Positions 9,001 to 60,000 of a stretch of 64,000 nt of DNA are shown piece by piece; positions within the stretch are counted from its first letter, which is position 1, and each line of letters starts with the position of its first letter. The DNA comes from Octopus sinensis (taxonomy: Eukaryota). Position numbers: made by a program. The stretch covers positions 11,408,001-11,472,000 of the forward strand of contig NC_042997.1 of NCBI RefSeq assembly GCF_006345805.1, given 5' to 3'.

Positions 9001-12000
9001 AGGCTTTGGTCGGTCCGAGGCCATAGTAGAAGACAGTTGCCTATGGTGTCACGCAGTGGGACTGAGCCCGGAACCATGTGGTTGATAAGCAAGCTACTTA
9101 CCTTTATTTTATTGTTTTTATAATTTTTTGTTTTTTTATTGTTTATAACTCTTTACTCTTTTACTCTTTTACTCTTTTACTTGTTTCAGTCATTTGACTG
9201 CGGCCATGCTGGAGCACCGCCTTTAGTCGATCAAATCGTCCCCGGGACTTATTCTTTGTAAGCCCAGTACTTTTTCTATCGGTTCCTTTTGCCGAACCGC
9301 TAAGTGACGGGGACGTAACACACCAGCATCGGTTGTCAAACAATGTAGGGGGGGACAAACACACACACACACAAACACCACACACACACACCACACACAC
9401 ACAACCACACACACACACAAATATATATATATATATACTAGACAGGCTTCTTTCAGTTTCCGTCTACCAAATCCACTCACAAGCATTGGTCGGCCAGGGC
9501 TATAGCAGAAGACACTTGCCCAAGATGCCACGCAGTGAGACTGAACCCGGAACCATGTGGTTGGTTAGCAAGCTACTTACCACACAAATTATTGTTTTTA
9601 TACACGAACACATACACACACATACTCACGTATCCACGAACACACATATACCTCCCACACACCACACACTTACATGCACATATACACACACACATACACA
9701 CACGCATGCATACACATATACACACACACAACCTGTCACACGTCTCCACTTTCACACACACATATACACACGCACGCACATACACACATGCACATACGCA
9801 CATACACACACACGCACATACATACGCACATAATACACGCACACACACATATACACACACACACCAGCACAGATTCCCACATATACCTCCAACAAACAAT
9901 ACTCAGCACCTTTCACTGACCATTCTTCCACATAGGTACATAGACACAAGAGCCACTCCTAATTCATTCTCTCTTGACCTTAAACAATACTAAGCCCTAC
10001 CACACACAGATTAACAGCCACAACCACACGCACACACACACACACACACGTGGTATCATTGCACACATACACACATACACACACATACCTCCTCTTGCAC
10101 TCTCGTGTCTTTGAAAGAACTTTTTCTTCACCCATTCCTTTCCGGTCATTCAAAATGTGACCGTGTGTGTACCGTTGACGATTTTTTGCCCTCCGTCTTC
10201 CCTTCTTTGGATCTTTCCTTTTCCTATGTTTCTGACGAAGAGTTCCGCTCGAAACGTTAAACCCTCCTTCTTTCCTTCTTTTCTGAGCGTCCAATAATAC
10301 TATACTTGTCCCACGTCCTCGCGTTGTTGTGTTTTCTCTTTGTGTTTTCATGTTTGGATTAACTATCTATCTATCTATCTATCTATCTATCTATCTATCT
10401 ATCTATCTATCTATCTATATCTATCTATCTATCTATCTATCTATCTATCTATATATAATATATTTCCTCGCGCTCGCCAGTTACCTATCTCGTCCCAGCC
10501 AGAACAAAGGCCTTCGTTCGTCTTTTTCGTTTGTTCTCTTGTTTATTTTTGATTTCTCGTATTGCAATTTAATTCTCGTTATGTATTTTCTTGTACATGT
10601 ATCTTTATTTTGTATTATTTTTTTTTCTCTTGTATGTATTTTTTTGTGCAGATCTTTGTTACGTCCCTTTTTGTGTTACATTTTTTCTCGCTCGTTTACC
10701 CCTCTACGAGTTTATTTTATTTTAATTCTCTCGTATGAAGGCCTAGCTTTACTATACGTGTTCTGTCTCTGCCTTCGAAACACGTGTCTGCTAGCGACAG
10801 CTGATGAAGGGGATTTTTCCTTGTGCAGCATGTCCTGTACTTCGTTTTTCTGCTGCACATAATTGTTTTTCCCGTTTTCGTTTTCGTTTCGTTTTGTTCC
10901 ACGTCTCTGTCCTTCTGTTGTAACAAAATGTCTTTTCCGTTTTCGTTCTGTTGATTTTTTCGTCTTCCTGTGATGTCCTGTACGTATATATATTTTATAT
11001 ATGCATGTATATATACATGTAGATGTCGGTACGTACATATATGTTTGTATGTATGCATATATTTTATTTATTACACTATATATATATATATAATATGTGA
11101 TCGCGTGTGTATCGTTGGCGATTTTCTTTCTCCGCCTTCCCTTCCTTAGACTTTTCCTTTTTTCTATGTTTCTGACGAAGAGCTCCGCTCGAAACGTTAA
11201 ATCCTCCTTCTTTCCTTTCCTGAGCGTTCAATAATACTATACTTGTTCCACGTCCTCGCGTTGTTGTGTTTTCTCTTTGTTCAGGTTTGGATTAACTATA
11301 TAATATATATATATATATATATATATATATATATTATATATATATATATATATATATATATATATATATATATAATATATATATATATATATATATATAT
11401 ATTAGAAAACACTTGCCCAAGGTGCCACGCAGTGGTACTGAACCCAGAACCATGCCAAGCTACTTACCACACAGCCACTCCTGCGCCTTATTATTCATTA
11501 TTATTCTTAGATGAATAAAACTGCTGGCATCAGTTGCTAGTTGTCCGAGCACTGCATCCTTCAAAACTTCCATGCTTCCTGAGATTCGCCAGCACTACAC
11601 CTGATTTTCTCCCCTCCATACACACGCAAGCATGTATCTGACTCATACATTGTATATATCTTTCTAAATAAAAGTCATACTCGTCACTTGGAAGCGAGTG
11701 TAACAAGGTACCATGCTATCACTAATTGTTTTAGGTGACTATGTAATCACTAACAGGCATAGACGCCTTCTCGGCCGTCCCACCCTTCACCCAGTAGAAC
11801 AGGTATGTGGAGGGAAAGAGGGGACTCCCAACACAAGGCTGGTACTAATTTTTCAGCGGAGTAGACAGAAGCAACGTGAAATAAAGTGCTTTGCTCGAGA
11901 AAACAACGCAGTATCCGGTTCAGTATCGAACCTACGATGTTATGATTGTGAGCCTAACATCTCTAACCACTAGATCAAGCATCTTTCCATTGTATCGTCA

Positions 12001-57000: not shown

Positions 57001-60000
57001 CTTCTTTCAGTTTCCGTCTACCAAATATATCTACAAGGCTTTGGTCGGCCCGAGGCTATAGTAGAAGACACTTACCCAAAGTGACAAGCAGTAGGACTGA
57101 ACCCGGAACAATTGTTCTTTTAAAAACATCATATGTAGAAGTATATACATGGAGACCCCTATTCGAAAAAAATACTTAAATACAAACAGCAGACCCCACT
57201 AAGCTCCCCGCCGCTCCAAACAGACGCTTTACCTGTGGTCGTGCTTCAAATGTTCAATTTTTCACGTACGACGTGACTTCCACTGCGACAACTTGGTAGC
57301 AGTAAGCGAGCTACTTACCACACAGCCACACTTGCGCCTAAATATATATCTATATGAATTATTTGTATATATATATATATATATATATATATATATACAT
57401 AGAGAGAGAGAGAGAGAGAGAGAGAGAAAAGAGACCGAGAGAGAGAGAAAGAGAGAGAAAACTTACTTGGAATGGATACGTGGCGTTCAATCATATAATA
57501 ATATACATAATATGTGTATATATACATATATATATATATATAATATATATATATATATTATATATATATATACATATATACATACATATATGTGCATACT
57601 TACATATATATATGTATATACATATGCATATATAGGCACAGGACATCAATATATCTATCTATCTATCTATCTGTCTATCTATCTGTCTGTCTATCTATCT
57701 ATCTATCTATCTATCTATCTATCTATCTATCTATCTATCTATCTATCTATCTATCTATATCTATAAAAACTTAGATAAACTTAGCTATGTTTCGACCAAA
57801 GATTGGTCCAGGCCATGTCTAACTTAATAGCACAACCTGATAGGATTAACTAAATCCTTTTTCAGCCAAGTTTTGTGGTATCATGGCCCATTCAGGTAGT
57901 GAGTTCTTGTTGGGTTATGTCGCAGTGTACATATATGCTGTGATCCTGAATTGGGAAGGGGACGTATGGCCCGTGGCCCCAGCCTTGGATGAACCTTGAA
58001 ACTAATGCTCAAGTCGTTGGGGCAATGCTGGCGGTATATCCTCATCGTACAAATGATATATAATATATATATATATATATAATCTTCGTGTTTAACCTAT
58101 TACGCGTATGTGCATCCACAGTTCCAAGCTATCAGACAGTTGGTAATTGGTAGACTGTCGGTTATATCAAACACCTGCCTGAAAACCCACAAACACTCGC
58201 GGAGTTTCTACAATTAAAGCAAAAGAGAATGGAGTGAGCAAGTTCTTTTATTTCGTTGATTTACAATCGTTTCATCAAAGAAGGGCATTCCAATACATAC
58301 ATACATACATGATATATATATATATATATATATATATATATATATCAAAGCTAAGCATATCAAGGTTAGAAATACAATATTGCCCGCTTCCGAAATGGTA
58401 CATATACCCGTGTGTGTGTGTGTGTGTGTGTGTGTGCGCGCGCGCAAGTTGTCTGTCTAAGGAAGCGTAAATGTATGTGCGTGTAGATATTGTTAGAAAT
58501 AAATGCCTAAATGATAAGTTGAAAGGAATGAAGTTGCTGTGATTTTAATGGGAATGGGTAACAATATACACCAAAAAGATAGGCATGATGGCTATAGGTC
58601 TGTCTGTCTGTCAGTGTGTCTCTGTGTGTGTCCGCCTCGCTGTCTGTCTATATGTGCAATTGTATATCTGTATGAATGTATGCATTTATGATTTTATGAG
58701 TTCATTGTACGAATACAATAGGCGCAGGAGTGGCTGTGTGGTAAGTTGCTTACTTACCAACCACATGGTTCTGGATTCAAGGTCAGTGCGTGGCACCTTG
58801 GGCAAGTGTCTTCTACTATAGCCACGGGTCGACCAAAGCCTTGTGAGTGTACTTGGTAGATGGAAACTGAAAGAAACCCGTCGTATATATGTATATGTAT
58901 ATATATATATTCTACTACTACTACTACTACTACTACTACTACTACTACTACTACTACTACTACGACTACGACTACTACTACTAATATAGGATGAAGTTTT
59001 TTTACAGGAAAAAAATTCATCAAAAAAAAAGTGGAAGCATATTAAAATACCTTTAAAGGTTAAAATTATAAACAACTTATAAACAAGGGCAAAAGAAAAT
59101 TATTCCTATGCCAATATGCTGATAACAGACTTTTAAATCGTCAATTTCCACATATTATTATATACCCACTACAGAAATTCGTTGTGCTGAAAGCTAACCA
59201 ACATATATATACATATATATATATATATATATATATATATATACACACACACACATATATATATATATATATATATATAACGGGAAGCTTTATGAAAATA
59301 AACAAAAGACGAAGGCAGGTGGAAAACAAACGAACAATTGTATTAGTATGGCGCTCAGGAAATATAAATAAAACAAGTCTTTAACGTTTCGAGCCTACGC
59401 TCTTCAACAGAAAGATACACAGAGAGAGAAAAACACAGAAAGAAGGAGAGAAAAAAAATGCGTGCAGTAGCTAACGAATCAACATGGCGATCTGATTTCG
59501 GCCAGAGGTCAAAGATCAAACATGAGACGCGAGAGCGAAATAAGGGGAGATAATAGGGTTGATAAAGGGTTGAGGGACCAGCTAAAAGTGCGTGGGAGGG
59601 GTCTGGATGTGTGTATGTATAGGGTTGGTGTATGTATTAGTATGTATAAGGGTGTGTGTGTGTGTGTATGTGTGTATGAGAGAGTATTAGTGCGTAAGAT
59701 TGGTCTGGACGTGCGTATGTATGGGGTTGGTGTATGTATTAGTATGTATTAGTATGTATTAGTACGTATTGGTATATATATATATATATATATATATTAT
59801 ATATATATATATATATATATATATATACCAGCATTAAAGACCCGTCGTTGCCGGGTCATAGTGCAAGTGCATGTATATATGTGTATATATATGTGTACAT
59901 ATTACATGTACATCTATATATATACATCTACACATGAAATACAAAATACAAAGTTATATCTTGATATCGCTAGTGATAACAATACTCAAAATATATAACA

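What the first reader, a model, noticed from the sequence alone, without database searches (positions are those of the whole stretch)
10228..59415. A community of hammerhead-ribozyme-bearing, ORF-less retro-elements (at least 7 motifs, about 4 unrelated families)
Seen in sequence: correctly ordered hammerhead cores with paired stems at 10228(+), 11168(+), 15964(-), 39784(-), 40150(+), 50997(-) and 59378(-). Stem sequences differ completely between families while pairing is kept. All lie in short non-coding units in or beside TA-type microsatellites, several with inverted duplications. Established: Penelope-like elements carry minimal, often dimer-type hammerheads in their pseudo-LTRs and form inverted or partial-tandem structures, and metazoan retrozymes are hammerhead-bearing non-autonomous elements. 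Inference: these are PLE-mobilised, retrozyme-like families, and a PLE RT relic at 1-1890 shows that a candidate helper class exists in this genome. A density of about one motif per 9 kb would imply a very large genome-wide ribozyme population.
Basis: partly seen in the sequence, partly recalled or inferred. Interest (0 to 1): 0.85.

Follow-up and report, generated by a model that had tools for sequence, protein, structure and literature searches.

The report
Penelope-type hammerhead ribozyme relics
The window really does hold several small self-cleaving-RNA (hammerhead) motifs, but they are the already known kind that Penelope-like jumping genes carry in their end segments, here as old, gene-less fragments in what is probably an octopus genome.

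Summary
Six of the seven sites have intact CUGANGA and GAAA boxes in type I order with paired helices. The seventh (59378-59415, minus) reads CUGUUGA and is a decayed copy of the 10228/11168 family. The sites fall into four sequence families (A x3, B, C x2 inverted, D). Shuffles and decoy core boxes give about 0.07-0.13 hits per window against 5 observed. Families A and B show the unsearched hallmarks of the published Penelope-like-element (PLE) minimal hammerhead: an unpaired base after A9, G10.1-C11.1 and palindromic helix III. D has an 8-nt palindrome and C is a three-helix monomer type. Family A keeps the motif as its best-conserved block, with a compensatory change in helix I. A PLE reverse-transcriptase relic at 3-1902 (minus) is confirmed. 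Independent PLE contigs of the same clade carry similar motifs 155-285 nt after their ORF. Rfam models miss all of them, controls included. The units have no ORF, but none is a head-to-tail tandem, so "retrozyme" is not met. Truncated PLE ends cannot be told from dedicated non-autonomous families using this window alone. The finding is real but of a known kind, and apparently undescribed for cephalopods.

The parts
10228..10262 (+). Family A, copy 1: minimal hammerhead. Helix I 4 bp; CUGACGA; unpaired A; helix II 4 bp with G10.1-C11.1; GAAA; palindromic ACGU; H17 = U.
10152..10463 (+). Family A unit 1, about 310 bp and ORF-less. Its 3' end runs into (CTAT)n.
11168..11202 (+). Family A, copy 2: minimal hammerhead. 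The helix I pair that is G-C in copy 1 is G-U here.
11092..11396 (+). Family A unit 2, 83% identical to unit 1. It has TA-rich microsatellite on both sides.
59378..59415 (-). Family A, copy 3: decayed hammerhead with first box CUGUUGA. Helix I is 5 bp, with a C-G pair where copy 1 has G-C.
59205..59457 (-). Family A unit 3, 64% identical to unit 1. Its 3' end runs into (TA)n.
15965..16004 (-). Family B: minimal hammerhead. CUGAUGA; unpaired A; helix II 5-6 bp with G10.1-C11.1; GAAA; ACGU; H17 = U; helix I only 2 bp.
32127..32240 (.). Head-to-head inverted pair of partial family B copies that start just 3' of the hammerhead position. Neither carries a hammerhead.
39784..39830 (-). Family C, left arm: three-helix type I hammerhead. 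Helix I 6 bp; helix II 4 bp (A10.1-U11.1); helix III a 4-bp hairpin; H17 = A.
40150..40196 (+). Family C, right arm: the same motif, identical over the motif.
39656..40452 (.). Family C insertion. It is a foldback (arms 39656-40326, 95% identical) plus about 125 bp. The insertion ends in a 31-nt segment (40422-40452) that is an inverted copy of the foldback centre (39984-40014). The whole lies inside the internal (TA)n of a tRNA-derived SINE copy (39478-39686 and 40445-40684).
50996..51087 (-). Family D: hammerhead with a long helix II (G-U at its base, then 6 bp and more), the 8-nt palindrome ACGAUCGU as helix III, H17 = A, and helix I of 5 bp.
50858..51591 (-). Family D unit, about 730 bp and ORF-less. 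It is bounded by 72-nt inverted arms (50858-50929 and 51520-51591, 83% complementary). The 3' arm abuts (TA)n.
3..1902 (-). Penelope-like element coding relic: RT, frame-shifted, interrupted by a microsatellite. It covers profile positions 4-588 of a roughly 750-position PLE profile. The endonuclease part and the 3' end lie beyond the window start.

Best explanation
The seven sites are genuine hammerhead-ribozyme motifs of the kind that Penelope-like retroelements (PLEs) carry in their terminal non-coding repeats. Six have intact cores and one is decayed. I read the four families as old, ORF-less remnants of PLE 3'-terminal (pseudo-LTR) segments. They would have been laid down by PLE-type integration, which typically gives 5'-truncated copies, partial tandems, adjacent inverted copies and short tails, often at microsatellites.

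Inferred mechanism, none of it shown here:
- In a transcript holding two copies, the minimal motifs of families A, B and D pair through their palindromic helix III and act as dimers.
- Family C could fold on its own.
- Cleavage falls after H17 and releases unit-length element RNA.
- A PLE reverse transcriptase with its GIY-YIG endonuclease then copies that RNA into new sites.

The copies in this window look old: the family A copies differ by 17-36% and one core is broken. They need not be active.
For: 1. Motifs far above chance.

2. Families A and B have three features that my descriptor did not demand and that PMC4209133 lists as recurrent in metazoan PLE minimal hammerheads. [quoted passage not shown] They also have the short helix I of that class. 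D has a palindromic loop 3.

3. In family A the hammerhead is the best-conserved block between copies that are 64% identical overall. One helix I pair runs G-C, G-U, C-G.

4. Over A1, A2, A3 and B, 88.6% of cells pair, against 16-46% when partners are slid. Six of 11 pairs change on both sides, and 0 of 500 shuffles reach that.

5. A PLE relic lies in the window.

6. Of 6 PLE contigs of the same clade, 4 have more than 300 nt of 3' flank. Three of those 4 carry a perfect-core motif with a 6-nt palindromic helix III, 155-285 nt after the ORF. In L001 and L002 a short (TA)n follows about 50 nt later.

7. Insertion anatomy matches the PLE traits described in PMC8557442:
- the C foldback plus a 31-nt inverted terminal copy;
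- the 72-nt inverted arms of D;
- the head-to-head partial copies of B;
- all three family A copies ending at a microsatellite.
PMC4209133 also reports paired motifs 100-700 bp apart on opposite strands; C1 and C2 are about 330 bp apart.
Against: - No Rfam hammerhead model matches any site, even at E<=10. The same scan also misses the PLE-borne control motifs, so this weighs little.
- A covariance model built from A1, A2, A3 and B does not find the motifs of L001, L002 or L004. There were 21 matches at E<=10, the best at E = 1.2, and none at those positions. The likeness to PLE-borne motifs therefore rests on architecture, not on a profile.
- No PLE coding relic lies near any site. Of 2086 six-frame pieces, only those within 3-1902 hit the profile. 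No hammerhead lies on the relic's 5' side.
- D has about 440 nt upstream of its motif with no coding signal, whereas the relatives have 155-285 nt between ORF and motif. D is therefore not a simple truncated copy of that clade.
- The explicit hammerhead fold of C scores -6.2 kcal/mol against an MFE of -10.2. C also lacks the PLE hallmarks: it has A10.1-U11.1, no unpaired base and a non-palindromic helix III.
- B has only 2 bp in helix I.
- A head-to-head inverted pair flanked by microsatellites also occurs for a tRNA-like SINE head at 16128-16343. That anatomy is therefore not specific to PLEs in this genome.
- The microsatellite association is weak against background.
Confidence: 0.55

Rival explanations
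1. The four families are dedicated, ORF-less, non-autonomous retroelements with their own defined ends. They are a dispersed, non-tandem counterpart of animal retrozymes. They use their hammerheads for RNA processing and borrow PLE enzymes to insert at microsatellites.
For: - A1 and A2 start at the same position although their flanks differ, and A3 starts within about 30 nt of it. That is not what random 5' truncation would give.
- D has about 440 nt of non-coding sequence upstream of its motif.
- No coding relic lies near any unit.
- Non-autonomous PLE derivatives that form pseudo-LTRs are described for Chlamys elements (PMC8557442). A PLE origin for animal retrozymes is argued in bioRxiv 10.64898/2026.07.22.740005.
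Against:
- The tandem arrangement that defines non-LTR retrozymes is absent.
- B's partial copies do not share clean ends.
- There is no expression or circular-RNA evidence.
Confidence: 0.3
2. The carriers are not PLE-related. They are foldback or MITE-type DNA transposons, or LINE-mobilised short elements, that happen to contain hammerhead motifs.
For: - C is a near-perfect foldback and D has 72-nt terminal inverted arms.
- Another foldback, of a SINE head, sits at 16128-16343.
- No direct sequence link to a PLE terminus was obtained.
Against: - Hammerheads of exactly this minimal, dimer-type build are described for PLEs and their derivatives (PMC4209133).
- Family A has no inverted repeats.
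- I did not look for target-site duplications or transposase relics beyond the Pfam scan of 10 ORFs, which found none.
Confidence: 0.1
3. Some or all of the motifs are chance matches in AT-rich, repeat-rich DNA. This applies most to B (helix I of 2 bp) and C (one family, no hallmarks).
For: - No Rfam match.
- The hammerhead fold of C is not its predicted minimum.
- My class thresholds were set after seeing the sites.
Against: - Expected counts per window are 0.0027 for C-like and 0.0007 for A-like, and B-like and D-like occurred in 0 of 1500 shuffles.
- Only one of 719 decoys reaches the observed count, and it does so through one repeated unit.
- The motif is conserved, with a compensatory change, across family A.
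Confidence: 0.04

Closest known systems
Minimal hammerhead ribozymes (min-HHR) in the pseudo-LTRs of metazoan Penelope-like elements (Cervera and De la Pena 2014, PMC4209133)
   Same: - Type I box order, a short helix I (2-5 bp here) and little or no helix III, with a palindrome that allows dimers.
- Families A and B also have the unpaired base after A9 and the G10.1-C11.1 pair.
- Most copies are dispersed single motifs, and some are pairs on opposite strands a few hundred bp apart.
- Sequences differ strongly between families within one genome.
   Different: - No flanking RT/endonuclease ORF is present at any of the seven sites.
- C has a stable, non-palindromic helix III and A10.1-U11.1.
- D has a G-U pair at the base of helix II and no unpaired base.
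- In the parts of that paper I read, the host group (probably a cephalopod) is not among the taxa named.
Animal non-LTR retrozymes (Cervera and De la Pena 2020, PMC7229834; Li, Clavereau and Pollet 2026 preprint, 10.64898/2026.07.22.740005)
   Same: - ORF-less, low-GC, short units carrying type I hammerheads.
- A proposed dependence on, and descent from, PLEs.
- C has the canonical 6-bp helix I and 4-bp helix II.
   Different: - Retrozymes are defined as head-to-tail tandem repeats (about 170-400 bp) with a hammerhead in every unit, and they are expressed as circular RNAs.
- Here no hammerhead-bearing unit is in tandem, and expression is unknown.
Canonical EN+ Penelope-like elements and their insertion structures (Craig et al. 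2021, PMC8557442)
   Same: - The relic at 3-1902 is homologous to RT plus GIY-YIG proteins of molluscs.
- The units show 5' truncation, inverted adjacent copies, a 31-nt tail-like segment and placement at microsatellites.
   Different: - The relic's endonuclease part and termini are not in the window.
- The strongest microsatellite bias in that paper is described for Naiad and Chlamys clades, which lack canonical hammerheads.

Membership tests
Hammerhead ribozyme, type I | Conserved boxes CUGANGA and GAAA in the order helix I / box 1 / helix II / box 2 / helix III / cleavage-site H / helix I | tested here: met
   6 of 7 sites are perfect. A3 has CUGUUGA. H17 is U or A at all sites.
Hammerhead ribozyme, type I | Match to a curated covariance model (the Rfam hammerhead families) | tested here: not met
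   No hammerhead match at gathering score, nor at E<=10 (150 of 228 rows seen). The same holds for the PLE-borne control motifs in L001-L006 at E<=1, so the test has little power for minimal variants.
Hammerhead ribozyme, type I | Site-specific self-cleavage | not testable with these tools
   Needs in vitro transcription of monomer and dimer constructs.
PLE minimal hammerhead (PMC4209133) | [quoted passage not shown] | tested here: met
   Present in A1, A2, A3 and B (4 of 7 sites). Absent in C1, C2 and D.
PLE minimal hammerhead (PMC4209133) | G10.1-C11.1 base pair | tested here: met
   Invariant in A1, A2, A3 and B. D has G-U and C has A-U, so it is met for two of the four families.
PLE minimal hammerhead (PMC4209133) | Palindromic positions 15.2-16.2 or loop 3 (dimer-type helix III) | tested here: met
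   A and B have ACGU, and D has ACGAUCGU. C has a non-palindromic 4-bp hairpin.
PLE minimal hammerhead (PMC4209133) | Location in the terminal repeat of an element that encodes RT and GIY-YIG endonuclease | tested here: not met
   The only PLE coding relic is at 3-1902, and the nearest motif is more than 8 kb away. In relatives, 3 of the 4 contigs with enough flank have the motif 155-285 nt after the ORF.
Animal non-LTR retrozyme (PMC7229834) | Head-to-tail tandem repeats of a short monomer, each with a type I hammerhead | tested here: not met
   None of the 29 tandem-repeat rows overlaps a site. A1 and A2 are direct repeats 940 bp apart that share only about 310 bp.
Animal non-LTR retrozyme (PMC7229834) | No protein-coding capacity | tested here: met
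   No PLE profile hit near the sites. I did not scan the ORFs around the sites against Pfam. The Pfam scan covered 10 ORFs elsewhere in the window.
Animal non-LTR retrozyme (PMC7229834) | Expression as small circular RNAs | not testable with these tools
   Needs RNA data from the source organism.
Penelope-like element (the relic at 3-1902) | PLE-type reverse transcriptase | tested here: met
   RVT_1 at E = 7e-4, below Pfam's cut-off. 43 longer homologues were found, with a best E of 1.7e-46. Nine ORF pieces cover profile positions 4-588.
Penelope-like element (the relic at 3-1902) | GIY-YIG endonuclease and hammerhead-bearing terminal repeats | tested here: inconclusive
   The C-terminal part runs off the window start. 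16 of 43 homologues carry PF01541. There is no hammerhead on the 5' side, which is cut by a microsatellite and another repeat.

The most novel reading that the evidence does not exclude
The units are not debris but a set of dedicated, dispersed, single-copy non-autonomous PLE dependants in a cephalopod. They would target microsatellites and carry three different hammerhead builds in one genome:
- a dimer-type minimal build (A, B);
- a build with a long helix II and an 8-nt palindrome (D);
- a monomer-competent three-helix build (C).

There may also be a fifth family (E, 10770-10975 and 17150-17401) in which both boxes are conserved in permuted order. That would extend the animal retrozyme concept from tandem arrays to solo elements.
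Probability: 0.2. Interest if true: 0.5.

Novelty: new member of a known kind. Interest (0 to 1): 0.3.

Why it matters
The result shows that a tool-less reader can pick out real minimal hammerheads that the standard Rfam scan misses. It adds what is probably a cephalopod genome to the hosts of PLE-type hammerheads.

In the held library, no paper was found that describes hammerheads or retrozymes in cephalopods. The recent Octopus vulgaris repeat annotation lists Penelope-like elements but does not mention ribozymes (PMC13282606, passages).

If the families proved to be dedicated non-autonomous elements, they would offer a compact system for asking what the hammerhead does for PLE-type retrotransposition. 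PMC8557442 calls that question still unclear.

As it stands, the finding confirms a known association and does not open a new one.

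Tried and rejected
- **Rfam scans.** Gathering on the whole window gave 0 matches. E<=10 on the whole window gave 228 matches, of which 150 were shown, all microsatellite or hairpin look-alikes of microRNA and similar families. 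E<=10 on 39700-40300 and on 10150-11280 gave 15 and 11 matches, none a hammerhead. I do not take this as refutation, because the same library also misses the PLE-borne motifs in L001-L006.
- **Covariance model R1.** It was built from A1, A2, A3 and B. It did not recognise the motifs in L001, L002 or L004. In the window it found only its four training sites at E<=5.5e-11; the other 22 of 26 matches had E>=2, including the C arms at 9.5 bits and E1/E2 at 9.4 and 9.7 bits. The model is too family-specific to serve as a cross-check, and it found no further A/B-type copies.
- **Thermodynamic folding.** Monomer and dimer predictions form helix II in all six and pair D's palindrome between molecules, but do not reproduce the full hammerhead. 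For C the hammerhead fold is 4 kcal/mol above the minimum. I count this as inconclusive.
- **U3-A8 covariant core** reported for schistosome PLEs: 0 strict and 4 relaxed hits, all with helix I of 2-3 bp and long non-palindromic loops. Rejected.
- **Nucleotide similarity** between the window's units and the six PLE contigs: only AT-rich low-complexity matches.
- **The 184-bp tandem array** as a possible retrozyme: it has no hammerhead boxes in order and is a SINE-derived unit. Rejected.
- **ARAGORN** found no tRNA genes.
- **Family E** as a type II hammerhead: helices I and III are not conserved between its two copies. Left unresolved.
- **MAFFT** misplaced L001 and shifted L002 relative to the A/B type. 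Both were dropped before the pair count, which therefore used 4 of the 6 sequences I had aligned.

**Not checked**
- Copies elsewhere in the source genome, because no eukaryotic genome collection was on hand.
- The collections metagenome contigs and viral contigs, which are closed.
- Supplementary files of PMC4209133 (descriptors, alignments, accession table) and of the 2026 preprint (tables). These may list molluscan or cephalopod motifs and could change the 'not described for cephalopods' statement.
- Target-site duplications, which I did not examine.

Full report
**What is there**

I read all seven sites on the stated strands and re-found them with a descriptor of my own. Six have perfect CUGANGA and GAAA boxes in type I order, with helix II between the boxes, a helix III that starts at A15.1, a non-G base at the cleavage position, and a helix I that pairs the two flanks. 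The seventh, at 59378-59415 on the minus strand, reads CUGUUGA, so its core is broken.

The other 24 hits have one core mismatch: 11 are an (ATG)n tract and one is the 59378 site.

**Is it more than chance?**

- The strict descriptor gives 5 hits, against a mean of 0.125 in 200 block-wise dinucleotide shuffles. The relaxed one gives 6, against 0.52.
- Over 1500 shuffles, a motif as good as family C appeared in 4, one as good as family A in 1, and ones as good as B or D in none.
- Shuffling destroys real repeats, so I also scanned the real window with 719 decoy box combinations of the same composition. Of these, 676 gave no hit (mean 0.068). The one decoy with 5 hits was five copies of a 184-bp tandem unit.
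- The class thresholds were set after seeing the sites, so the ratios flatter the result. The excess is still about a hundred-fold, and it involves three to four independent sequence families.

**Against this**

Rfam found no hammerhead family at gathering score or at E<=10 (in one search only 150 of 228 rows were shown). I return to this under the PLE link.

**Families and anatomy** (self-BLAST)

- **Family A** has three copies: 10152-10463, 11092-11396 (83% identical) and 59205-59457 on the minus strand (64%).
  - In the alignment the hammerhead is the best-conserved block. One helix I pair runs G-C, G-U, C-G across the three copies. A second conserved box of unknown meaning lies about 30 nt downstream. 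All three copies end where a microsatellite begins.
- **Family B** is one full copy (motif at 15965-16004, minus strand). It has three partial copies, including a head-to-head inverted pair at about 32127-32240 that starts just 3' of the hammerhead position. Its ends are not cleanly defined.
- **Family C** is a single foldback (39656-40326, arms 95% identical) with one motif per arm, about 330 bp apart on opposite strands.
  - The insertion continues to 40452. It ends in 31 nt that are an inverted copy of the foldback centre.
  - The whole insertion splits the internal (TA)n of a tRNA-derived SINE, whose uninterrupted form is seen at 23294-23713.
- **Family D** is a roughly 730-bp unit bounded by 72-nt inverted arms (83% complementary). 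Its 3' arm abuts (TA)n.

Only A1, A2, A3 and D lie within about 100 nt of a perfect microsatellite of at least 12 nt, against 24% of random positions. In this microsatellite-rich window the association is suggestive only.

**Which kind of hammerhead**

Cervera and De la Pena (PMC4209133; I read parts 1 and 2 of 4, not the supplements) describe minimal hammerheads in the terminal repeats of metazoan PLEs. These have:
- a short helix I;
- a longer helix II;
- an unpaired base at the 5' end of stem II;
- a conserved G10.1-C11.1 pair;
- palindromic 15.2-16.2 or loop 3;
- action as dimers, with low activity in vitro.

They report most copies as dispersed single motifs, thought to be truncated PLEs, and some as pairs 100-700 bp apart on opposite strands.

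Families A and B show every one of these sequence features. My descriptor allowed but did not require them. D has an 8-nt palindrome, a G-U pair at the base of helix II and no unpaired base. C differs: it has the canonical 6-bp helix I and 4-bp helix II, but A10.1-U11.1 and a stable non-palindromic helix III, so it could act as a monomer.

A formal count over A1, A2, A3 and B gives 88.6% paired cells, against 16-46% for slid partners. Six of 11 pairs change on both sides, and 0 of 500 shuffles reach that. The caveats are that there are only four sequences and that I derived the structure from them.

**The PLE link**

*The relic in the window.* The minus-strand ORF pieces at 3-1902 carry a weak RVT_1 match (E = 7e-4, below Pfam's cut-off). 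They have 43 longer homologues (best E = 1.7e-46). Sixteen of these also carry the GIY-YIG domain PF01541. The named ones come from Octopus bimaculoides, Octopus sinensis and bivalves. The relic is therefore a PLE and the host is probably an octopus or another cephalopod.

*No coding relic near the motifs.* tblastn with all 43 proteins hit only that stretch. So did a profile built from 13 of them and run against 2086 six-frame pieces. The hammerhead units are thus ORF-less as far as this PLE clade goes. The relic's 3' end lies outside the window. Its 5' side is cut by a microsatellite and another repeat and holds no hammerhead.

It returned six contigs titled as bacterial MAGs but carrying such PLEs.
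- Four of them have more than 300 nt of 3' flank.
- Three of those four (L001, L002, L004) carry a perfect-core motif with a 6-nt palindromic helix III, 155-285 nt after the ORF. L005 does not. L003 and L006 have too little flank.
- In L001 and L002 a short (TA)n follows about 50 nt after the motif.

*What the controls say.* Rfam misses these motifs too, so its silence on the window is uninformative. My own model built from A1-A3 and B also fails to find them, and there is no real nucleotide similarity between these contigs and the window's units. The link is therefore one of architecture and context, not of homology.

**Explanation**

The most economical reading is that these are old remnants of PLE terminal segments, or of elements derived from them. 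PLE-type integration would have laid them down. Craig et al. (PMC8557442, passages) describe that process as giving 5' truncation, partial tandems, adjacent inverted copies, 30-40-bp tails and a microsatellite bias.

The mechanism is inferred from the literature, not shown here: pairing as dimers through the palindromic helix III, cleavage after H17, and reverse transcription by the PLE enzyme.

Points against a simple 'truncated PLE end' reading:
- A1 and A2 share their 5' start although their flanks differ.
- D has about 440 nt of non-coding sequence upstream of its motif.
- The hammerhead fold of C is not its predicted minimum (-6.2 against -10.2 kcal/mol).
- Head-to-head pairs beside microsatellites also occur for a SINE head at 16128-16343.

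However, the defining tandem arrangement of animal retrozymes (PMC7229834, passages; preprint 10.64898/2026.07.22.740005, abstract and sections 3 and 14) is not met. None of the 29 tandem-repeat rows covers a site.

**Novelty**

Hammerheads in PLE termini, their huge copy numbers in animal genomes, and the descent of animal retrozymes from PLEs are all in print. Searches for hammerhead ribozyme or retrozyme together with octopus or cephalopod returned only Craig et al. and unrelated papers. The 2026 Octopus vulgaris repeat annotation lists Penelope-like elements but never mentions ribozymes (PMC13282606, passages). The finding is thus a new host group for a known kind. Supplementary files that I could not open might already list such motifs.

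**Verdict**

The finding is real and ordinary in kind, with modest interest (0.3).

Noticed in passing
10770-10975 (+) and 17150-17401 (-): A further short, pyrimidine-rich repeat (family E). Both copies conserve both hammerhead boxes in permuted order: GAAAC first, then CUGAUGA 25-35 nt later, with an unpaired A and a G-rich hairpin. No GAAA follows the hairpin. Both copies end at a TA microsatellite. A type II reading is not conserved between the copies.
   Followed up: partly
10282-10292, 11219-11229 and 59345-59355 (-), approximate: A second conserved box about 30 nt 3' of the family A hammerhead. It is kept in all three copies, although two of them are only 64% identical overall. Its meaning is unknown.
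   Followed up: no
42959-44429; also 14600-15300 and single units near 16653, 19262, 19848, 21409, 30126 and 42277: A 184-bp unit derived from a tRNA-like SINE, amplified into an 8-copy tandem array (97% matches) and a shorter array, and scattered as single units. It has no hammerhead boxes in order.
   Followed up: partly
for example 23294-23713 (-), with at least 15 further copies across the window: A very abundant tRNA-derived SINE of about 420 bp with an internal TA/TG microsatellite. Other elements, including family C, are inserted into that microsatellite.
   Followed up: partly
16128-16343: A head-to-head inverted pair of a tRNA-like SINE head (90% self-complementary over about 216 bp). 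It is flanked by (AAT)n and (ATG)n and lies directly upstream of family B.
   Followed up: partly
L001-L006 (contigs): Six contigs filed under bacterial metagenome-assembled genomes encode eukaryote-type Penelope-like RT/GIY-YIG proteins, and three of them carry hammerhead motifs. This is probably host DNA carried over into the bins. I did not trace the samples.
   Followed up: no
2259-2646 and 60690-60980: Two short tandem repeats of unknown nature: 157 bp x 2.5 copies (96% matches), next to the PLE relic's 5' side, and 146 bp x 2 copies.
   Followed up: no
18584-18683: A near-perfect 100-bp palindrome that draws sub-threshold hits from several microRNA families on both strands. It also gives two weak hits for the U3-A8 variant core.
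   Followed up: no
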